Source of the DNA: Patescibacteria group bacterium
GTDB taxonomy: Bacteria; Patescibacteriota; Minisyncoccia; Phycocordibacterales; UBA1006
Reading direction: 5' to 3'
DNA length: 64,000 bases
Assembly: GCA_028286885.1 (NCBI GenBank)
Contig: JAQBQS010000008.1
Location: 12,121-76,120, forward strand
The position numbers and the translations under genes are program-made. Below are positions 3,910 through 46,958 of this stretch, piece by piece. Positions within the stretch are counted from its first letter, which is position 1. The number at the start of each line of letters is the position of its first letter. Under the pieces are notes generated by a model that was not told where the DNA came from, did not search any database, and saw nothing but the letters and a program-made list of their open reading frames with translations.

Positions 3910-4572
3910 TTACATTTCAATCGGCCCGTAGAAGCTTTCTTTTCTCCAAGAATACACTGCCCACATCCGGTCGCCGTAGCAGTAATGCCACCATTCGCCC
4001 GGATACCAAACAAATCCGACTGATTCCATCGCTTCGCGAAGAAGTGTCCGATTTTTGATTTGAACATCCGTCAGACCTTTTGCAAACATTGGAGCCTTGG
4101 GACGCTCTGCTTCAGTGGCAGCCGCATACTGCGTTCCGAAATCCAGCAATTCTCCATTGGTTTTCGCAAGCATGACGTCAACCGCACCTCCGCAAACATG
4201 ATTCGAAATTCCGACGGGACGCGCGACAACCTGCCGAACTTCTATGTCAATCTTGTCATCATTCCAATCCGGATGTTCCGACTTTACGATATTCCATTTC
4301 CGCTCCCAGCACATTTTTTGTTTCGACATTGAACGATATCCCTCTATAACAACTAATGCTATTCCTTCGGGCAGCAACGCCGCCGCTTGATGAATCTTGC
4401 CAAAGACAGACTTTCTGACCATAAACGACGTTGTAATTCCCGGGAAGAGCTCGATCGGCATGAGGATTATTTTTTCCGTAGGAAAAATCTCTACGAGTTC
4501 TTCGTTCGTCTCATTAATGCCGACGGAATCCCAAGCGCTTTTTGGAAGTGTTTTTTGAATTTGTTTTCTCAT
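3910..4572 (-). CDS. D-alanyl-D-alanine dipeptidase (peptidase M15D, VanX/DdpX-like)
   Basis: SNHVCGGAVD and EWWH motifs. The ORF-track start is TTG at 4635; internal ATGs lie at 4608 and 4572, and the true start is uncertain. Confidence 0.7.
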   Translation of the reverse strand: MRKQIQKTLPKSAWDSVGINETNEELVEIFPTEKIILMPIELFPGITTSFMVRKSVFGKIHQAAALLPEGIALVVIEGYRSMSKQKMCWERKWNIVKSEHPDWNDDKIDIEVRQVVARPVGISNHVCGGAVDVMLAKTNGELLDFGTQYAAATEAERPKAPMFAKGLTDVQIKNRTLLREAMESVGFVWYPGEWWHYCYGDRMWAVYSWRKESFYGPIEM

Positions 4573-37014: not shown

Positions 37015-39924
37015 TTAGATGACGATCGAAATAATTTTGCCGGCAACATAGATAAATTTCTTTACGTCTTTTCCGTCAGTCCATTTCTTGATCTCGTCCA
37101 TCGCGAAGACTTTTTCGCGAACTGATTCCTCGCTTTCATCCTTGGCAAGTTCGATTTCGGCACGGACTTTTCCGTTGACTTGGATGCCGAGCTTCACCGT
37201 GTCATCAATGACAAGATTCGAATCATACTTTGGCCAATCTGACAGATGAATTGAATCAGTTTCGCCAAGCTCGTGCCAGATTTCTTCGGCGACATGCGGC
37301 GCAAATGGGGCAAGAATTTTCAAGAATGCCTTAAGATCCAAAACGGAAATCTGATAATCAGAATCAATTTCATTGGCAAGAATCATCAGCGATGAAACGG
37401 CCGTATTGAACTTGAATCCTTCGATATCATCACTCACCTTTTTAATCGTCTTGTGAAGCAATTTTTGTATGCCTTCACGAGTAGCGCCATTTGCATTCTT
37501 GGCCTTCTCGGAAATTTTCCAGACTTTTTCAACAAAGCGGAGCGTTCCAACCATCCCGTTCATGTCCCAACGCGCGGTCTGTTCAAACGGCCCGATGAAC
37601 ATTTCGTACAAACGGAAAGCATCGGCGCCGAATTGGTTCACGACATCGGTCGGATCAATTCCGTTCCCGTCGCGCTTCGAAAATTTCTTGCCATTCTTGT
37701 CCAAAATATATCCCAAGAATTCAAGGCGAGGAAACGGCTCTTCAGTCGAAACGGCGCCGATATCGAAGAGGAACTTGTGCCAGAACCTTGCATAGATCAG
37801 ATGCCGTGTCGCATGATCTGCTCCTGAATAAATATCGACGGGCATCCAGTGTTTTTCCTTGTCTTTGTCTACGAATGCATCTTGATTATGCGGATCAATG
37901 TAACGCAAGTAGTACCAAGACGATCCGGCCCACTGTGGCATTGTGTTGGTTTCGCGTTTTGCTGCGCCTCCGCATTTAGGACATGGAATGTTAACCCATG
38001 ATTCGATCGCGGCGAGCGGACTCTCCCCTGTTCCTGTCGGTTCGTAATGGGACACCTCAGGCAACATGACCGGAAGTTCCGATTCCGGAACGGGTACAAC
38101 GCCGCATTTCTCGCAGTGGATCATGGGAATCGGTTCGCCCCAGTAGCGCTGACGCGAGAAGACCCAATCCTTCAGACGATACGTAGCCATCAGTTTCCCG
38201 CCGACGAACTCGGTAATTTTTTTGCGAGCTTCACTTGAATCCATTCCATCAAACTCTCCTGAATTTACAAGAATGCCGGATTCGACATATGCTTCGTCAT
38301 TATTTTTTGCGAGACGCGCGAGCCAGTACGGAAGTTCCGAATTGACCATTTTGCCCGGAACAAATTCTGATTTTGAAACCCATACATTTTCGTTGCCTTC
38401 GTTTTCACCATCTGTTGGAATTTTAATTTTTGCATCACTTCGAAGTTCGAAATACAGGGCCGACGCAATCGCGTTGCGATTCTCGTCTTTATGCTTCGCA
38501 AAATACGATGCCTGAACTGGATTGCCGAGGAATCGCTTGAATTCCAAATCGGCATAACCCGTTTCCTCTTGCAATTCGCGCGTTGCCGCCTCGATCAGAT
38601 CCTCACCTTCCTCAACACCGCCAATTACAACTGTATCCCATCCGAATTTTGAATTCCTGATGATGAGGTATTTTTCAGTTTTCGGATCATAGACGATGGC
38701 ATGCACGTTCCGTCTTACTTTTGTCGCCTTATCTGTTCGAGGAGGATTTACATGATCAACAACCGAAGGCCGAACAACTTCGTGAATCGGCAAATCATAT
38801 TTTTTTGCAAATTCGAAATCGCGCTCATCGTGCGCCGGAACCGCCATCACCGCACCTGTTCCATAATTCGCCAAGACGTAGTCGGCAACGTAGACAGGAA
38901 TCTCTTGTGCGTTTGCAGGATTGATCGCAACAACGCCTTCGATTCGCACGCCCGTCTTTTCCTTCTTGGCATTTGTTCGATCAATGTCCGATTTCTCGGA
39001 AGACTGTTTTACGTAAGCTCGCACCTCATCCTCATTATCGATAACATCTTTATGATTTTCATCCAACGCCAATGTTACCCAAGGATGCTCGGGAGCAAGC
39101 ACGATGTATGTCACCCCAAAGAGCGTATCCGCGCGCGTCGTGAAAACAGGAAGACGCGCAGGATTTCCATCCGCATCGCGTCGTTCGTTCCAATCTGGAT
39201 GCGTCGTGAATTTCAAGTTGAAATAAATTTCCGAACCTTCTGAACGTCCGATCCAGTTTCGCTGGGCTTCTTTCACGCCTTCCGGCCACTTCGAGAGCTT
39301 GTCCAAGTCCGCAAGCATTCGGTCTGCATAATCGGTAATCTTCAGAACCCACTGGCGCATCGGACGCTTCTCGACTTTCGCTCCGCATCGTTCGCATGTT
39401 CCGTCAGCTTCGACGTCCTCGTTGGCAAGAACCGTCTTATCGACAGGACACCAATTGACCGGTTCATTTGATTCGTATGCCAATCCCTTGTTGAACATCT
39501 GGATGAACATCCACTGCGTCCACTTGTAAAATCCGGGATCGGTCGTGTTGATTTCTCGCGACCAGTCGTAATCGAATCCGATGACAGACAACTGATCTTT
39601 AAAAGCTTGAATATTTTTTTCAACAGCAACACGCGGATGGACTTTATTCTTGATAGCAAAATTTTCTGCAGGCAGACCAAAAGCATCCCATCCCATCGGA
39701 TGCAGTACATTGAATCCCATCATGCGCTTCATGCGACTGTACACGTCGGTCGCAATAAATCCCCGCGGATGTCCGACGTGGAGTCCGATGCCTGACGGAT
39801 ACGGGAACATGTCCAAAATCAGCTGCTTGGGCTTGTCAGAATTCTCAGCCGTCTTGTACGTCTGATTCTTGTTCCAAGTTTCCTGCCATTTCGATTCGAT
39901 TTTCTTGTGATCGTAATTGTTCAT
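37015..39924 (-). CDS. leuS: leucine--tRNA ligase carrying an inserted NUDIX domain
   Basis: HVGH and KMSKS (KFSKR) motifs. CP1 editing motifs TTRADTLFGVTYIVLAPEH and GTGAVMAVPAHD. The YRLKDWVFSRQRYWGEPIP segment. About 165 extra residues lie between KYDLPIHEV and LVNSGEFDG. Confidence 0.9.
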   Translation of the reverse strand: MNNYDHKKIESKWQETWNKNQTYKTAENSDKPKQLILDMFPYPSGIGLHVGHPRGFIATDVYSRMKRMMGFNVLHPMGWDAFGLPAENFAIKNKVHPRVAVEKNIQAFKDQLSVIGFDYDWSREINTTDPGFYKWTQWMFIQMFNKGLAYESNEPVNWCPVDKTVLANEDVEADGTCERCGAKVEKRPMRQWVLKITDYADRMLADLDKLSKWPEGVKEAQRNWIGRSEGSEIYFNLKFTTHPDWNERRDADGNPARLPVFTTRADTLFGVTYIVLAPEHPWVTLALDENHKDVIDNEDEVRAYVKQSSEKSDIDRTNAKKEKTGVRIEGVVAINPANAQEIPVYVADYVLANYGTGAVMAVPAHDERDFEFAKKYDLPIHEVVRPSVVDHVNPPRTDKATKVRRNVHAIVYDPKTEKYLIIRNSKFGWDTVVIGGVEEGEDLIEAATRELQEETGYADLEFKRFLGNPVQASYFAKHKDENRNAIASALYFELRSDAKIKIPTDGENEGNENVWVSKSEFVPGKMVNSELPYWLARLAKNNDEAYVESGILVNSGEFDGMDSSEARKKITEFVGGKLMATYRLKDWVFSRQRYWGEPIPMIHCEKCGVVPVPESELPVMLPEVSHYEPTGTGESPLAAIESWVNIPCPKCGGAAKRETNTMPQWAGSSWYYLRYIDPHNQDAFVDKDKEKHWMPVDIYSGADHATRHLIYARFWHKFLFDIGAVSTEEPFPRLEFLGYILDKNGKKFSKRDGNGIDPTDVVNQFGADAFRLYEMFIGPFEQTARWDMNGMVGTLRFVEKVWKISEKAKNANGATREGIQKLLHKTIKKVSDDIEGFKFNTAVSSLMILANEIDSDYQISVLDLKAFLKILAPFAPHVAEEIWHELGETDSIHLSDWPKYDSNLVIDDTVKLGIQVNGKVRAEIELAKDESEESVREKVFAMDEIKKWTDGKDVKKFIYVAGKIISIVI
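38275..38772 (-). other. NUDIX hydrolase domain inserted within LeuRS (residues ~385-550)
   Basis: Nudix box GGVEEGEDLIEAATRELQEETG lies in frame inside leuS (DNA 38554..38622), flanked by a complete Nudix-fold-sized segment. Confidence 0.6.
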
Positions 39925-39925
39925 A

Positions 39926-40543
39926 TTATATTTCTCCCGATTCTATCGACTCTCTCCTGTCTGCCAAGGTCTTGCCTTCGTATTTCCAATAAATAGTTCC
40001 TTGCGGTTTGTATTTATAACCAAGAAGTTTCCACGCTGCGTCTGAAAGACTTGTTACTTCGCCGTTTAATTCAATAGTCTTTTTTCCCGAAGATGCAACC
40101 ACTTTCGCCTTGATGCTTTCATTTTTTACGAAAAAGATTTCTGCTCCAAGAGGTATTTTTGCGGCTTCGAAATTAAACGATGATTTTCTTTCGCGCGCAT
40201 CTTGCAACGCCTTTTTATCTTCTTCTGATTCAAAGAAATCTTCTTTTGGTGTGATCTCTTCCAGTTCTGCGATCTTTAAGGCTGCGACAATCCTGTCAGG
40301 GGAAATTTGAAAGAACTCCCTATTACTCCTTACTCTGTTATTAAGAAATGCATCATGGAGAAGTTTTTCTATTTCCCTTGCGTTCCTCAGTTTTAACTTT
40401 GCAGCATAATAACATTCAAAAGGAAGCGGCGCTGAAGTAGTATCGAGCTCTTTAAGCCGTTGCTGAATGCTGGTAGTTGTAAAACCTACTTTAACATATC
40501 CCGGCATTGCCTCGTTTATTAAGACGTATACGATCTCGTTCAT
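39926..40543 (-). CDS. T5orf172 (GIY-YIG-like) domain protein with DUF4357-like C-terminus
   Basis: IVYVLINEAMPGYVKVGFTTTSIQQRLKEL...PFEC...EFF matches the T5orf172/MUG113 pattern. The stop lies 1 nt before the leuS ATG. Confidence 0.55.
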   Translation of the reverse strand: MNEIVYVLINEAMPGYVKVGFTTTSIQQRLKELDTTSAPLPFECYYAAKLKLRNAREIEKLLHDAFLNNRVRSNREFFQISPDRIVAALKIAELEEITPKEDFFESEEDKKALQDARERKSSFNFEAAKIPLGAEIFFVKNESIKAKVVASSGKKTIELNGEVTSLSDAAWKLLGYKYKPQGTIYWKYEGKTLADRRESIESGEI

Positions 40544-41591: not shown

Positions 41592-41891
41592 TTAGGCTGC
41601 TTGCTTCTGTGAAAAAGCTGATGCATAGCTTTGGACGCCTGACATGCGCGACCAAGGAAAACAATGACTTGGATCAATCACTTTCGGATCTTCATCGCTC
41701 TCTGTCATGACCGTCCTAAATTCAATACCTGCATTCTGTAAGATCGCTTTGGCAAGATTTCCTGCCCTGCCTCTTGGCTGATATAGTGTTATCATATAGT
41801 TTATATTTTTTGATTTACCCAAGATTAGCATGAATTTCCTTTTCAGGGAATTCAGGGCGACTACTGTATTACCGAGATTCCCGTCGTGCAC
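41592..41891 (-). CDS. hypothetical protein, weak ArsC/Spx/YffB-like N-terminus without a catalytic Cys
   Basis: MITLYQPRGRAGNLAKAILQNAGIEF resembles the YffB/ArsC start. The ORF-track start is GTG and overlaps the upstream gene; the real start may be ATG at 41795. Confidence 0.3.
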   Translation of the reverse strand: MHDGNLGNTVVALNSLKRKFMLILGKSKNINYMITLYQPRGRAGNLAKAILQNAGIEFRTVMTESDEDPKVIDPSHCFPWSRMSGVQSYASAFSQKQAA

Positions 41892-42505
41892 ATTATTGAA
41901 CGAGTCCTCGGTCCGAAGACGCCGTCAGCCGTCAGATTCTGACTTGCCTGGTAGGCAGCAAGTGCTGCGAGCGTTTTGCGTCCGAATACTCCGTCGATCG
42001 TTCCGATGATTCCCGTGAATTTCGCATCAAGGAACTCCTGCAAATAGGTTACAGCCGTTCCGCTAACGCCGCGATAAAGTTTCTGATACGGAATCGTGCA
42101 GATCGTTGCGGGCGTTGGAACTGGATCTGCCCTGCATTCGCCGCTGTAGAGGAATGTCGCATTGTCCGCGCCGAGCATGCAATTGTTAGCGTACGTTCTC
42201 TGGATCGGATCGCATGGAGCCTTGATACAATAAATCGTTTTTTGTCCGCAGACAGGCTGATAAATCGCAGTACAAATGATCGGATTAATCGGTGCATTTG
42301 GATTGCATTCGCCGCGGAAATAAGCCCACTCTTCGCATGTTACGCCGCTTGAAAATGTGCACGTGCCGACATTATTATTCAATGAATAAGAAGCACCATC
42401 GGCTATACATTTCGTCGCGGCTGGATTCGCCATAGCCGATGCCGAATGCCCTATGAATAAAGCTCCCAAAGCAAGAATTCCCGTCAAAAGTGTTTTCTTG
42501 ATCAT
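41861..42505 (-). CDS. secreted DUF333 + Kazal-like + peptidoglycan-binding (PG_binding_1) protein
   Basis: Signal peptide. MANPA...CEEWAYFRGEC (DUF333 signature). CTAIYQPVCG...TYANNC...GEC (Kazal-like). C-terminal YLQEFL...DGVFGRKTLAALAAYQ...DGVFGPRT (PG-binding repeat). Confidence 0.6.
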   Translation of the reverse strand: MIKKTLLTGILALGALFIGHSASAMANPAATKCIADGASYSLNNNVGTCTFSSGVTCEEWAYFRGECNPNAPINPIICTAIYQPVCGQKTIYCIKAPCDPIQRTYANNCMLGADNATFLYSGECRADPVPTPATICTIPYQKLYRGVSGTAVTYLQEFLDAKFTGIIGTIDGVFGRKTLAALAAYQASQNLTADGVFGPRTRSIMCTTGISVIQ

Positions 42506-42550
42506 ATATATGAGTATACAAAAATCCCCCGATAATATCGAGGGATTAAA

Positions 42551-45923: not shown

Positions 45924-46403
45924 ATGCCCGAGAAAACTTCTTTCATCGAAAATATTTCACTCCGCGCGACCAAGTGGATCGGCTCGACTGCATCGCTTGT
46001 CACGCACACGGTCATTTTCGTGATATGCGGAATCGTCATTCTGGCGGGCGTTCCCGTAGACCGCGTTCTCTTGGTTCTAACGACGATCGTTTCACTCGAG
46101 GCAATTTACTTGTCGATTTTCATCCAGATGTCCGTCAATAGAAACGAGTCGAAACTCGAGGAAGTATCCGACGACATCGAAGAAATCCAAGAGGACGTCG
46201 AGGGAATCGAACAGGACGTCGACGAAATTCAAAAAGACATTGATGAAATTCAAGAAGACGTCGACGAAATCCACGACGAGATCGAAGACGATCCAGACAC
46301 GAAGCATTTGGAGCATATCAAGAAGACATTAGGAGCATTGATCAAGGAAATGGAAATGCTCCACTCGCATACGCAAACGCCTTCAAAGAAAAAGAAAGAA
46401 TAG
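45924..46403 (+). CDS. DUF1003-like membrane protein with acidic heptad tandem repeat
   Basis: Two TM helices, then five to six copies of D[IV][DE]EIQ[EK] as a 21-nt tandem repeat. TATAAT lies 8 nt upstream of the ATG. Confidence 0.5.
   Translation: MPEKTSFIENISLRATKWIGSTASLVTHTVIFVICGIVILAGVPVDRVLLVLTTIVSLEAIYLSIFIQMSVNRNESKLEEVSDDIEEIQEDVEGIEQDVDEIQKDIDEIQEDVDEIHDEIEDDPDTKHLEHIKKTLGALIKEMEMLHSHTQTPSKKKKE
46167..46293 (+). repeat. 21-nt tandem coding repeat (about 6 copies)
   Basis: gacatcgaagaaatccaagag / gacgtcgagggaatcgaacag / gacgtcgacgaaattcaaaaa ... inside CDS 45924..46403. Confidence 0.6.
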
Positions 46404-46411
46404 CGCAAAAA

Positions 46412-46443
46412 AAATCACCCTTCATTACGAAGGGTGATTTTTG
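46412..46443. terminator. bidirectional terminator overlapping the stop of 46425..46958
   Basis: aaaaaaaa, then tcaccctt-cattacg-aagggtga, then ttttt. Confidence 0.6.
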
Positions 46444-46958
46444 AGCCACATAATCATCATCTGAAGCGTCGAAGGTCCGACTGTCCCCGTCTGCGTGATC
46501 TTGTTCTGTTTTTGGAAGGTTGTTACGTTTGTCTTGAGCGTTGCGCCATACGTATTATCAATGGCACCTGTCTTCTTGAAATAAAGATTCATGAACTGCT
46601 GCACGTATCCGACATTTTCATTCTTGTTGCCGGACTTGAGCGTGACTTTGTTCGTTGCCATAGCGGTCAGGTTTGTGGAGAGCGTGGCTGAGACTGACGA
46701 AGTGGTGGGTGTAGGTGTTGCGGCGGCGGCCGATGCACCAGAGGTCGAAGCAGTGGAGGTTGATCCGGCCGCCGCCTGCGAAGTCCCTTTCGTTCCCGTA
46801 TCAGGATTCGTTACGACCGAATGCAAGTCCCCGATCTTTTCGGGCTTCGCGGGCATATAGGAAGCAGGTTCGGTCATAGACATGTAGGCGAAATATCCGC
46901 CTGCGCCGAGCGCTGCAATGACAACCAACGTCAGAAGTGTAAAGAAGAAGCCTTTCAT
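46425..46958 (-). CDS. membrane-anchored protein with C-terminal peptidoglycan-binding-like domain
   Basis: TM anchor, Ser/Thr/Ala-rich linker, then GYVQQFMNLYFKKTGAIDNTYGATLKTNVTTFQ (PG_binding_1-like). Confidence 0.5.
   Translation of the reverse strand: MKGFFFTLLTLVVIAALGAGGYFAYMSMTEPASYMPAKPEKIGDLHSVVTNPDTGTKGTSQAAAGSTSTASTSGASAAAATPTPTTSSVSATLSTNLTAMATNKVTLKSGNKNENVGYVQQFMNLYFKKTGAIDNTYGATLKTNVTTFQKQNKITQTGTVGPSTLQMMIMWLKNHPS

What the first reader, a model, noticed from the sequence alone, without database searches (positions are those of the whole stretch)
41861..42505. Secreted DUF333 + Kazal-like + peptidoglycan-binding fusion protein
The protein has a signal peptide. It then has the DUF333 signature (MANPA...C...CEEWAYFRGEC). 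It then has a Kazal-type inhibitor-like core (C-TAIYQPVCG...TYANNC...GEC). It ends with a C-terminal PG_binding_1-type repeat. It looks like a cell-wall-tethered protease-inhibitor-like module. A second PG-binding protein lies at 46425..46958. Kazal domains are unusual in bacteria and suggest defence against host or competitor proteases.
Basis: partly seen in the sequence, partly recalled or inferred. Interest (0 to 1): 0.6.

Follow-up and report, generated by a model that had tools for sequence, protein, structure and literature searches.

The report
Wall-anchored bacterial Kazal-like protease inhibitor candidate
A small secreted protein of an uncultured Patescibacteria (CPR) bacterium joins an unknown-function domain (DUF333), an animal-type "Kazal" protease-inhibitor head and a cell-wall-binding domain; it belongs to a large bacterial family in which I found no tested member.

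Summary
ORF 41861..42505 (-) encodes a 214-aa protein. It has a Sec-type signal peptide ending ASA|M, then DUF333 (aa 25-66, E 4.9e-10), a six-cysteine middle domain (aa 75-125) and PG_binding_1 (aa 148-205, E 7.5e-11).

The Kazal call is below Pfam's cut-off on the full protein (16.9 vs 21 bits). Four other tests support it:
- The excised domain scores 24.3 bits.
- A 60-sequence family profile hits almost only Kazal inhibitors in the PDB (Galleria SPI2, E 1.8e-9).
- hhalign to ovomucoid and SPINK1 gives 95% probability, in reactive-loop register.
- An AlphaFold model (pLDDT 90) superposes on SPI2 (TM 0.86, rmsd 0.8 Å).

It is a variant. It lacks the classical Cys1-Cys5 pair and carries a 12-residue insertion with its own cysteine pair in the beta-hairpin.

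The domain is not rare: 1269 clusters at 50% identity. About a quarter of the best 150 also carry PG_binding_1. A third carry a pacifastin-like head, including the only two full-length homologues.

Most likely function: a peptidoglycan-tethered canonical serine-protease inhibitor with P1 = Ala80. The target and the role of DUF333 are unknown. I rate it a new variant of a known kind, of moderate interest.

The parts
41861..42505 (-). Whole gene: 214-aa secreted DUF333 / Kazal-like / PG_binding_1 protein with 12 cysteines (an even number)
   Evidence: ORF list and sequence. Identical NCBI MAG protein P0001 and two full-length homologues P0002 (50%) and P0003 (35%). Syntenic in L001.
42434..42505 (-). 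Sec-type signal peptide, aa 1-24 (MIKKTLLTGILALGALFIGHSASA), predicted cleavage ASA|MANPA; no lipobox
   Evidence: Read directly from the sequence. The same A-x-A | (M/L)ANPA junction is conserved in P0002 and P0003. SignalP was not available.
42305..42433 (-). DUF333 domain, aa 25-67, with four conserved Cys (33, 49, 57, 67); function unknown
   Evidence: Pfam PF03891, E 4.9e-10, 40 bits against a cut-off of 25. Alignment A5 shows invariant ANPA, C, C, F, C, W, R, E, C. No solved relative by sequence.
42131..42283 (-). Kazal-like inhibitor domain, aa 75-125 (core Cys78 to Cys124); Cys spacing C-x7-C-x6-C-x4-C-x10-C-x14-C
   Evidence: Kazal_1 24.3 bits on the excised domain. Profile against the PDB gives Kazal inhibitors, best SPI2 at E 1.8e-9. 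hhalign to OMTKY3 and SPINK1 gives about 95%. AF2 pLDDT 90.2. Foldseek top hits are LDTI and SPI2, TM 0.86.
42266..42268 (-). Predicted P1 residue Ala80 of the reactive-site loop C78-T79-A80-I81-Y82-Q83-P84-V85-C86-G87
   Evidence: The register comes from hhalign, where A80 aligns with Leu18 (P1) of OMTKY3 and Lys18 of SPINK1. This column is hypervariable in the family, 3.24 bits with K/M/A/L/T/R, between conserved Thr and Glu-Tyr.
42206..42241 (-). 12-residue insertion (aa 89-100, KTIYCIKAPCDP) at the tip of the Kazal beta-hairpin, carrying the extra Cys93/Cys98 pair
   Evidence: A 12-residue gap appears against SPI2, OMTKY3 and SPINK1. The AF2 strands aa 85-89 and 101-105 flank it. Family members exist with and without it.
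42101..42130 (-). Pro/Thr/Ala-rich linker, aa 126-135
   Evidence: Sequence; low pLDDT in the full-length model.
41888..42100 (-). PG_binding_1 peptidoglycan-binding domain, aa 136-206 (Pfam match 148-205), bracketed by conserved Cys136 and Cys206
   Evidence: Pfam PF01471, E 7.5e-11, 42.5 bits against a cut-off of 23. PDB sequence hits to PG-binding domains of SleB, muramoyl-pentapeptide carboxypeptidase and endolysins. Both Cys are conserved in P0002 and P0003.
42523..42547 (-). Terminator-like hairpin plus T-run between the upstream Exo_endo_phos gene and this gene
   Evidence: Consensus scan: 11 pairs, loop of 3, then TTTGTATACT. Weak evidence: 1 site found against 1.7 expected in shuffles.
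42513..42541 (-). Promoter-like site (TCGATA, 17 nt, TATACT) ending 7 nt before the ATG; suggests its own transcription unit with a very short leader
   Evidence: Consensus scan, 9 of 12 matches; not evidence of function.
46425..46958 (-). Second PG_binding_1 protein (177 aa): N-terminal membrane anchor, Ser/Thr/Ala-rich linker and a C-terminal PG_binding_1. A neighbour, not part of the inhibitor.
   Evidence: Pfam PF01471 at aa 116-168, E 2.9e-9. A PG_binding_1 gene of 171 aa sits at the equivalent place in L001.

Best explanation
The gene encodes a secreted protein that stays on the cell surface, held non-covalently to peptidoglycan by its C-terminal PG_binding_1 domain. There it presents a Kazal-like 'standard-mechanism' (Laskowski) inhibitor head.

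Proposed mechanism: the loop Cys78-Thr79-Ala80-Ile81-Tyr82 would insert like a substrate into the active site of a serine endopeptidase of the S1 or S8 type. Ala80 would sit at P1, which favours elastase-like or subtilisin-like enzymes. The loop would be held rigid by the Cys78-Cys109 and Cys86-Cys124 disulfides and by the spacer Asn107.

The extra 12 residues lengthen the beta-hairpin on the side away from the reactive loop and are stapled by Cys93-Cys98. DUF333 is a second small disulfide-bonded module of unknown role, possibly a further binding or inhibitor head.

The likely biological use is protection of the wall and surface proteins of an episymbiotic CPR cell from exogenous (host, competitor or environmental) proteases.

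Shown here: the domain composition, Kazal homology and fold, conservation of the canonical loop and spacer Asn, hypervariable P1, and recurrent fusion to wall-binding domains and to other inhibitor heads.

Inferred: secretion, disulfide connectivity, PG binding, actual inhibition, target class and biological role.
For: - Pfam: DUF333 and PG_binding_1 are above their cut-offs on the full protein. Kazal_1 scores 24.3 bits against a cut-off of 21 on the excised domain.
- Family profile A3 against all PDB sequences: the 64 hits at E<=1 (60 listed) are nearly all Kazal inhibitors, plus the SSI-type inhibitors. Best are SPI2 at E 1.8e-9, SPI-1 at 5.6e-7, AEI at 6e-6 and LDTI at 4e-5.
- hhalign A3 against OMTKY3 gives 95.3% and against SPINK1 94.6%. 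Both have the C-T-P1-x-Y-x-P-x-C-G and T-Y-x-N-x-C motifs in register with a single 12-residue gap.
- AF2 with a 60-sequence alignment gives pLDDT 90.2 and a hairpin, helix, third-strand layout.
- The only Foldseek PDB hits with probability above 0.2 are LDTI (0.99) and SPI2 (1.00, TM 0.86, rmsd 0.8 Å).
- Across 299 family domains, P2 Thr, P1' Glu, P2' Tyr, Pro-Val-Cys-Gly, Thr-Tyr and Asn are conserved, while P1 varies among K/M/A/L/T/R. This is the known signature of canonical inhibitors.
- Of 119 relatives, 32 have PG_binding_1, 5 Gmad2, 2 SLH, 12 a weak Pacifastin_I hit, 1 Kunitz and 1 SSI. 37 of the 151 proteins analysed have PG_binding_1, and those with a complete N-terminus begin with a signal-peptide-like segment.
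- The two full-length homologues carry a pacifastin-like head at the same place. Its family profile hits only pacifastin inhibitors in the PDB, best E 6.4e-6, with the reactive C-T-(L/M)-x-x-C conserved.
Against: - No inhibition has been measured for any member I could find.
- Kazal_1 is below threshold on the full-length protein, and Kazal_2 fails.
- The classical Cys1-Cys5 disulfide is absent.
- P1' is Ile rather than the family's usual Glu.
- Kazal-like domains in follistatin, agrin, SPARC and SLCO transporters are not inhibitors (general knowledge).
- No S1/S8 catalytic motif was found in the 64-kb window or within +/-4 kb of 24 related loci, so no target is identified.
- Foldseek E-values are weak (0.3) because the domain is tiny.
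- Disulfide geometry of the model could not be inspected.
Confidence: 0.6

Rival explanations
1. The Kazal-like domain is a non-inhibitory, disulfide-stabilised binding or spacer module, as in follistatin/SPARC/agrin-type Kazal domains. The protein would then be a wall-anchored adhesin or surface scaffold, for example for attachment of the CPR cell to its host, with DUF333 as the functional binding end.
For: - Many relatives are long multi-domain surface proteins with PKD (31 of 119), Big and SLH domains.
- DUF333 is at the distal N-terminus.
- No cognate protease was found nearby.
- P1' Ile departs from the family consensus Glu.
Against: - The full canonical loop and spacer Asn are conserved while P1 is hypervariable. 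That pattern is expected for inhibitors, not for scaffolds.
- The domain co-occurs with other bona fide inhibitor folds: pacifastin-like, Kunitz and SSI.
- The closest solved relatives are all active inhibitors.
Confidence: 0.2
2. The protein regulates the cell's own envelope enzymes. The inhibitor head, or DUF333, would restrain an endogenous secreted protease or peptidoglycan hydrolase at the wall. This would link it functionally to the neighbouring murB (and, in L001, a Glu/Asp racemase) cell-wall genes.
For: - Conserved synteny next to murB in the window and in L001, where an Asp/Glu racemase gene lies directly downstream.
- PG_binding_1 is typical of wall-remodelling enzymes.
- A second PG_binding_1 protein lies 4 kb away.
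Against: - The synteny is seen in only one related genome and involves housekeeping genes. A terminator-like hairpin and a promoter-like site suggest a separate transcription unit.
- Relatives in other genomes sit in unrelated contexts, and no protease or hydrolase partner is adjacent.
- Kazal heads are known only against serine endopeptidases (general knowledge).
Confidence: 0.15
3. The Kazal resemblance is a chance match of a cysteine-rich low-complexity stretch.
For: Sub-threshold Pfam score on the full protein, split into two short stretches. Small Cys-rich domains are prone to spurious hits.
Against: - The profile-level E-value is 1.8e-9, and the PDB hit list is almost exclusively Kazal.
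- hhalign gives 95% probability.
- The AF2 model is confident and superposes on SPI2 at 0.8 Å.
- 72 of 119 relatives hit Kazal_1 at E<=1e-3, the best at 1.5e-49.
- Intermediates without the insertion occur within the same proteins, for example the last domain of P0136 with SPI2 spacing.
Confidence: 0.03

Closest known systems
Galleria mellonella silk protease inhibitor 2 (SPI2; PDB 2m5x/4hgu), an atypical single-domain Kazal inhibitor
   Same: It is the best sequence-profile hit (E 1.8e-9) and the best structural hit (prob 1.00, TM 0.86, rmsd 0.8 Å). It has the same reduced cysteine framework, lacking classical Cys1 and Cys5, with C-x7-C ... C-x14-C spacing. It shares the motifs C-T-x-E-(Y/W)-x-P-V-C-G and K-T-Y-S-N-x-C.
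   Different: SPI2 has C-x10-C where this protein has C-x6-C-x4-C-x10-C, that is, a 12-residue disulfide-stapled insertion. SPI2 is a free 40-residue insect silk peptide. This protein is bacterial and fused to DUF333 and a wall anchor. SPI2's inhibitory activity is documented; this one's is not.
Classical Kazal inhibitors (MEROPS I1; turkey ovomucoid third domain, SPINK1/PSTI) and non-classical ones (LDTI, Anemonia elastase inhibitor, infestin)
   Same: The reactive-site loop and spacer Asn align in register. The secondary-structure order is the same. P1 is hypervariable across the family.
   Different: There is no Cys1-Cys5 disulfide. The hairpin is extended. The helix-to-C-terminus segment is shorter (x14, against x2-C-x17). 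The source is a prokaryote.
Wall-tethered bacterial protease-inhibitor proteins of the BsuPI/IPI family (PMC3901451)
   Same: The design principle is the same. That paper's Figure 4 legend lists a small inhibitor domain fused in bacteria to signal peptides, PG-binding, SLH, LysM and Gmad2 domains. Relatives of the present domain carry the same partners: PG_binding_1, SLH and Gmad2.
   Different: The inhibitor fold is unrelated (Ig-like against Kazal), so this is analogy, not homology.
Bacterial (Myxobacteria and CPR) pacifastin-like domains reported computationally in PMC13388995 (2026)
   Same: This is the same phenomenon: arthropod/animal-type canonical inhibitor folds in compact CPR MAGs, without biochemical validation. 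The homologues P0002 and P0003 of this protein, and 49 of the roughly 150 Kazal-like relatives, carry such a module.
   Different: The window protein itself has no pacifastin-like module; only 10 residues separate DUF333 from the Kazal-like head. My term searches of that paper found no mention of DUF333, and its one use of 'peptidoglycan' is in a reference title.
DUF333 (PF03891 / COG3042 'putative hemolysin'; E. coli YoaF by general knowledge)
   Same: The N-terminal module is a clear member, with conserved ANPAS..C...C.F.dG..CeEWa.fRGeC.
   Different: The 120 best of 320 DUF333 relatives are stand-alone secreted or lipoproteins of 49-84 aa. Here it is fused to inhibitor and anchor modules. 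No function or structure is known.

Membership tests
Kazal-type inhibitor domain (Pfam PF00050 Kazal_1 / MEROPS I1) | Score at or above Pfam's gathering cut-off (21 bits) | tested here: inconclusive
   Full-length protein scores 16.9 bits, below the cut-off. The excised domain aa 68-136 scores 24.3 bits, E 3.2e-5, above it, but split into two stretches by the insertion. Kazal_2 scores 10.6 bits and fails.
Kazal-type inhibitor domain | Reactive-site loop C-(T/P)-P1-x-Y-x-P-(V/L)-C-G followed by T-Y-x-N-x-C with the spacer Asn | tested here: met
   C78-T-A-I-Y-Q-P-V-C86-G and T104-Y-A-N107-N-C109. These align in register with OMTKY3 and SPINK1 by hhalign at 95% and with SPI2, AEI and LDTI by HMMER.
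Kazal-type inhibitor domain | Fold: beta-hairpin, short alpha-helix starting at the Asn-x-Cys, and a third strand | tested here: met
   The AF2 model has pLDDT 90.2, with strands at aa 85-89, 101-105 and 117-121 and a helix at 108-113. Foldseek top hits are LDTI 1ldt and SPI2 4hgu, TM 0.75/0.86 normalised to the target. This is a predicted, not experimental, structure.
Kazal-type inhibitor domain | Classical six-cysteine framework with disulfides 1-5, 2-4 and 3-6 | tested here: not met
   Cys1 and Cys5 are absent. The framework is C2-x7-C3-[x6-C-x4-C-x10]-C4-x14-C6. The same loss occurs in the accepted atypical member SPI2. I therefore file it as Kazal-like (atypical), not classical Kazal.
Kazal-type inhibitor domain | Disulfide connectivity C2-C4 and C3-C6 (here 78-109 and 86-124; extra 93-98) | not testable with these tools
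   Model coordinates are not exposed. The connectivity is inferred from superposition on SPI2 at rmsd 0.8 Å. It needs mass-spectrometric disulfide mapping.
Kazal-type inhibitor domain | Tight-binding, substrate-like inhibition of serine endopeptidases | not testable with these tools
   Requires biochemistry. The only indirect support is the hypervariable P1 with a conserved scaffold.
DUF333 (PF03891) | HMM score above the gathering cut-off, and the four conserved cysteines with the ANPA and EEWA.FRGEC motifs | tested here: met
   40 bits against a cut-off of 25, E 4.9e-10, aa 25-66. Invariant columns are shown in A5.
PG_binding_1 (PF01471) | HMM score above the gathering cut-off over the full 57-position model | tested here: met
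   42.5 bits against a cut-off of 23, E 7.5e-11, model positions 1-57. PDB sequence matches to PG-binding domains of SleB and other wall enzymes.
PG_binding_1 (PF01471) | Actual binding to peptidoglycan | not testable with these tools
   Needs a sacculus pull-down assay.
Sec signal peptide | Positively charged n-region, hydrophobic h-region, A-x-A at -3/-1 | tested here: met
   By inspection: KK at 3-4, h-region at aa 5-19, A22-S23-A24 | M25. Conserved in the homologues. No predictor was available.
Pacifastin-like inhibitor domain (PF05375) | Presence of a C-x-x-W-x-D-G-C-N-x-C ... C-T-(L/M)-x-x-C module | tested here: not met
   Absent from the window protein, where only aa 68-77 lie between DUF333 and the Kazal-like head. 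Present in homologues P0002 and P0003.

The most novel reading that the evidence does not exclude
CPR/Patescibacteria and some other bacteria and archaea would possess a shuffled toolkit of small disulfide-rich, eukaryote-type canonical protease-inhibitor heads: long-hairpin Kazal-like, pacifastin-like, and possibly DUF333 as a third, unrecognised head. These would be displayed on the cell wall through PG_binding_1, SLH or Gmad2 anchors. The three orthologous genes (window, P0002, P0003) would have swapped heads at one locus (Kazal; pacifastin plus Kazal; pacifastin) in an arms race with the proteases of host bacteria or grazers. If so, DUF333 ('putative hemolysin') would finally get a function, and episymbiont surfaces would be protease-shielded.
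Probability: 0.2. Interest if true: 0.7.

Novelty: new variant of a known kind. Interest (0 to 1): 0.48.

Why it matters
Kazal inhibitors are textbook animal proteins. I know of no biochemically characterised bacterial member, and my searches of the held library found none.

This locus shows that an ultra-small, probably episymbiotic bacterium displays such a head on its own wall. The head belongs to a large and mostly unannotated prokaryotic subfamily, with more than 1200 clusters at 50% identity. Most relatives listed carry no precomputed Pfam domain.

The work gives three concrete, cheap experiments:
- Inhibition assays on a 55-residue domain.
- P1 swaps at Ala80.
- A sacculus-binding assay.

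It also gives a handle on the orphan domain DUF333. The 12-residue stapled hairpin extension is a natural example of loop grafting on the Kazal scaffold, which may interest inhibitor engineers.

It does not overturn any concept. The mechanism proposed is the standard one.

Tried and rejected
1. AF2 on the full-length protein with only 3 sequences gave pLDDT 44 and was unusable, so DUF333 has no usable model.
3. A DUF333 profile against PDB sequences found nothing meaningful; the best hit was E 0.13 to a C-type lectin.
4. The literature on DUF333 holds nothing functional, and many hits were DUF333x false matches. Two JGI names, 'inhibitor of cysteine peptidase', on DUF333-only proteins are only a lead.
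5. Literature searches for Kazal with Patescibacteria/CPR, and for Kazal with a peptidoglycan-binding domain, found no description of this family. One search turned up nothing specific on bacterial I1 members.
6. A regex search for S1/S8 catalytic motifs found none in real ORFs, either in the window or in +/-4 kb flanks of 24 related loci. This is a crude test; distant or unusual proteases would be missed.
7. A murI (racemase) remnant between this gene and murB was considered and rejected by tblastn.
8. Horizontal transfer was checked by composition. The gene's GC of 0.48-0.50 is within the local range of 0.40-0.51, so there is no anomaly.
9. The search for related loci with the 60-sequence alignment failed for lack of a conserved stretch. 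A narrower alignment worked, but it samples only the '...C(I/V)(K/R)APC' subtype.
Full report
**1. The observation**

The window has an ATG-started ORF of 214 aa at 41861..42505 on the minus strand. Its product is identical to an NCBI MAG protein, 'hypothetical protein JWM20_494 [Patescibacteria group bacterium]'. So the window comes from a CPR/Patescibacteria genome.

The N-terminus MIKKTLLTGILALGALFIGHSASA|MANPA has the n-, h- and c-regions of a Sec signal peptide. It has A-S-A at -3/-1 and no lipobox. The same junction, A-x-A followed by (M/L)ANPA, is conserved in the two homologues.

Pfam on the full protein gave these results:

| Domain | Residues | Score | Cut-off | E-value |
|---|---|---|---|---|
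| PG_binding_1 | aa 148-205 | 42.5 bits | 23 | 7.5e-11 |
| DUF333 | aa 25-66 | 40 bits | 25 | 4.9e-10 |
| Kazal_1 | two stretches | 16.9 bits | 21 | 0.0067 |

The second PG-binding protein at 46425..46958 (-) is also confirmed, with PG_binding_1 at E 2.9e-9. The Kazal claim needed more work.

**2. Is the middle domain Kazal?**

The domain spans aa 75-125 and has six cysteines (78, 86, 93, 98, 109, 124), spaced C-x7-C-x6-C-x4-C-x10-C-x14-C. The evidence comes in four layers.

- Excised domain. Cut out alone, it reaches 24.3 bits on Kazal_1 (E 3.2e-5), above the cut-off. Every phmmer hit in the PDB is a Kazal inhibitor: Anemonia elastase inhibitor, Galleria SPI2, SPI-1 and LDTI.
- Exhaustive search. 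HMMER with a two-sequence profile found 1269 representative proteins at E<=1e-3, and 333 at E<=1e-10. The matches cover the whole domain including the insertion, and often occur in 2-22 tandem copies.
- Family profile. From those hits I built a 60-sequence alignment (A3). Against all PDB sequences it gives SPI2 at E 1.8e-9, SPI-1 at 5.6e-7, AEI at 6e-6 and LDTI at 4e-5. Infestin, ovomucoids, PSTI/SPINK and rhodniin follow. The only other family is the SSI-type inhibitors.
- Profile-profile comparison. hhalign of A3 against turkey ovomucoid third domain gives 95.3% probability, and against human SPINK1 gives 94.6%. Each alignment has a single 12-residue gap. They align Cys78 with the classical second Cys, Ala80 with the P1 residue (Leu18 / Lys18), Pro-Val-Cys-Gly with Pro-Leu/Val-Cys-Gly, and T104-Y-A-N107-N-C109 with T-Y-G-N33-K-C.

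The structure prediction agrees. AlphaFold2 on aa 72-130 with A3 gave pLDDT 90.2. The model has strands at aa 85-89, 101-105 and 117-121 and a helix at aa 108-113. In Foldseek against the PDB, only two hits have appreciable probability. They are LDTI (prob 0.99) and SPI2 (prob 1.00, TM 0.86 on the target, rmsd 0.8 Å). Everything else is at or below 0.18.

So the fold and homology assignment is sound. It is an atypical Kazal in two respects. The classical Cys1-Cys5 disulfide is missing, as it is in SPI2, whose spacing is C-x7-C-x10-C-x14-C. And 12 residues (KTIYCIKAPCDP) with their own cysteine pair are inserted at the tip of the beta-hairpin.

Family members with shorter or no insertion exist. 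Examples are spacings 7,13,14 and 7,14,14. The last domain of P0136 has 7,10,12, with no insertion between the second and third Cys, as in SPI2. The variant therefore grades into ordinary Kazal domains.

**3. Signs of inhibitor function**

Across 299 aligned family domains:

| Position | Conservation |
|---|---|
| P2 | Thr 72% |
| P1' | Glu 59% |
| P2' | Tyr 88% |
| Pro | 100% |
| Val | 96% |
| Cys-Gly | 100% / 78% |
| Thr | 97% |
| Tyr/Phe | 99% |
| Spacer Asn | 98% |

The P1 column, by contrast, is among the most variable at 3.24 bits: K 62, M 61, A 40, L 24, T 24, R 21. A conserved scaffold with a hypervariable P1 drawn from typical primary-specificity residues is the known hallmark of standard-mechanism inhibitors (established knowledge on ovomucoid third domains). 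In the window protein P1 is Ala. That points to elastase-like or subtilisin-like targets, and this is an inference.

**4. Architecture and relatives**

Only two full-length homologues exist in 5.8 billion proteins: P0002 at 50% and P0003 at 35%. P0002 lies in a syntenic locus: SpoU methylase, this gene, Asp/Glu racemase, MurB, Exo_endo_phos, LeuRS.

The three differ precisely in the middle:

| Protein | Order of modules |
|---|---|
| Window | DUF333, Kazal-like, PG_binding_1 |
| P0002 | DUF333, extra Cys module, Kazal-like, PG_binding_1 |
| P0003 | DUF333, extra Cys module, PG_binding_1 |

The extra module has the pattern C-x-x-W-x-D-G-C-N-x-C-x-R ... C-T-(L/M)-x-x-C ... C. It is present in 49 of the roughly 150 best Kazal-like relatives. 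A 28-sequence profile of it hits only pacifastin-family inhibitors in the PDB (15 of 15, best E 6.4e-6). The pacifastin reactive-site motif C-T-P1-P1'-x-C is conserved. Inhibitor heads of two different families are thus exchanged at one position of an otherwise conserved protein. This is the strongest contextual argument that the middle of the protein is an inhibitor cassette.

A Pfam scan of 119 Kazal-like relatives gave these counts at E<=1e-3:

| Family | Members |
|---|---|
| Kazal_1 | 72 |
| PG_binding_1 | 32 |
| PKD | 31 |
| Pacifastin_I (weak) | 12 |
| Gmad2 | 5 |
| META | 4 |
| DUF333 | 3 |
| SLH | 2 |
| Kunitz | 1 |
| SSI | 1 |

By local HMMER, 37 of 151 proteins carry PG_binding_1. 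Those with a complete N-terminus begin with a signal-peptide-like segment. DUF333 flanked by Kazal-like heads recurs in P0115, P0136, P0228, P0247, P0252 and P0245.

Wall anchoring of a Kazal-like head is therefore a recurrent design. The particular order found here (DUF333 first, anchor last) is rare. Within the held library I found no paper describing this family. Many members listed have no precomputed Pfam domain and are called 'hypothetical protein'. One is named 'Kazal-like domain-containing protein' by UniRef.

A pattern-limited scan of one genome per species found 24 loci:
- 13 in CPR lineages (Saccharibacteria, Paceibacterota, Minisyncoccia, Falkowbacteria, Peribacteria and others).
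- 8 in Proteobacteria.
- 3 in archaea.

In seven of the CPR loci the gene is a roughly 200-aa two-headed Kazal-like plus pacifastin-like protein. Pacifastin-like domains in CPR and Myxobacteria were reported computationally in 2026, without biochemical validation (PMC13388995).

**5. Context in the window**

The neighbours are housekeeping genes:
- LeuRS
- a T5orf172 gene
- MurB
- an Exo_endo_phos protein
- SpoU methylase
- an AAA kinase-like protein
- SecG
- an SBP_bac_5 solute-binding protein

A terminator-like hairpin (42547..42523) and a promoter-like site whose -10 ends 7 nt before the ATG suggest a separate transcription unit. These are consensus matches only. GC content is not anomalous. 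No S1 or S8 catalytic motif occurs in a real ORF of the window or in the flanks of related loci, so the target protease is unknown and probably not encoded next door.

**6. DUF333**

It is a clear member of PF03891. It has no solved relative by sequence and no functional literature. The 120 best of 320 relatives are stand-alone proteins of 49-84 aa, called 'putative hemolysin' or 'DUF333 domain-containing protein' where a source names them at all. Two are named 'inhibitor of cysteine peptidase' by JGI. That label is an unverified lead. Its repeated embedding among inhibitor heads suggests a related role in binding or inhibition.

**7. Verdict**

The protein is best explained as a peptidoglycan-tethered, atypical Kazal-like canonical serine-protease inhibitor with P1 Ala80, preceded by a DUF333 module of unknown function (confidence about 0.6).

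The statement that Kazal domains are unusual in bacteria needs tempering, because this long-hairpin subtype is abundant in metagenomes and frequently wall-anchored. I class it as a new variant of a known kind. The mechanism is standard. What is new is the stapled hairpin insertion, the DUF333 fusion, the wall anchoring in a CPR bacterium, and the head swapping among orthologues. None of it has been tested experimentally. Interest is moderate (about 0.5).

Noticed in passing
window 37015..39924 (-): The leucyl-tRNA synthetase carries an inserted NUDIX hydrolase domain at aa 404-528 (Pfam E 7.6e-15), just after the editing domain. The ortholog in L001 (11821-15255) also has NUDIX, plus DUF559 and MTES_1575 inserts. 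A Nudix domain inside a LeuRS is unusual and unexplained.
   Followed up: partly
window 39926..40543 (-): A T5orf172/MUG113 gene (E 7.5e-17) is wedged between LeuRS and MurB. It is absent from that place in the syntenic locus L001, which suggests a mobile insertion.
   Followed up: no
P0002 aa 79-115, P0003 aa 79-118; loci L004, L008-L012, L014 (around 4000-4500): A bacterial pacifastin-like module (C-x-x-W-x-D-G-C-N-x-C ... C-T-(L/M)-x-x-C ... C) lacks the fourth pacifastin Cys and has a compensating downstream Cys. It occurs in a third of the Kazal-like relatives, and with a Kazal-like head in roughly 200-aa two-headed proteins of Saccharibacteria, Paceibacterota and Minisyncoccia. CPR pacifastin-like domains were reported in PMC13388995. 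My term searches of that paper did not show the pairing with long-hairpin Kazal heads or wall anchors in bacteria.
   Followed up: partly
window 41592..41891 (-): A 67-99-aa ORF fills the 330-bp gap between this gene and murB. It has no Pfam hit. L001 has an Asp/Glu racemase gene there, and tblastn finds no remnant of it in the window.
   Followed up: partly
window 46425..46958 (-) and 45924..46403 (+): The second PG_binding_1 protein has an N-terminal membrane anchor and a long Ser/Thr/Ala-rich linker. It is conserved next to a DUF1003/DUF948-like coiled-coil membrane protein in both the window and L001. This may be a conserved envelope pair.
   Followed up: no
loci L022, L023, L024: Long-hairpin Kazal-like domains also occur in archaeal MAGs: Methanosarcinales, Woesearchaeota and an unclassified archaeon. 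Contamination or mis-binning was not checked.
   Followed up: no
proteins P0335 and P0403 (DUF333-only, 79 and 60 aa): JGI names these 'inhibitor of cysteine peptidase', although only DUF333 is present. The name may have been transferred from DUF333-inhibitor fusion proteins. It is a lead for DUF333 function, not evidence.
   Followed up: no
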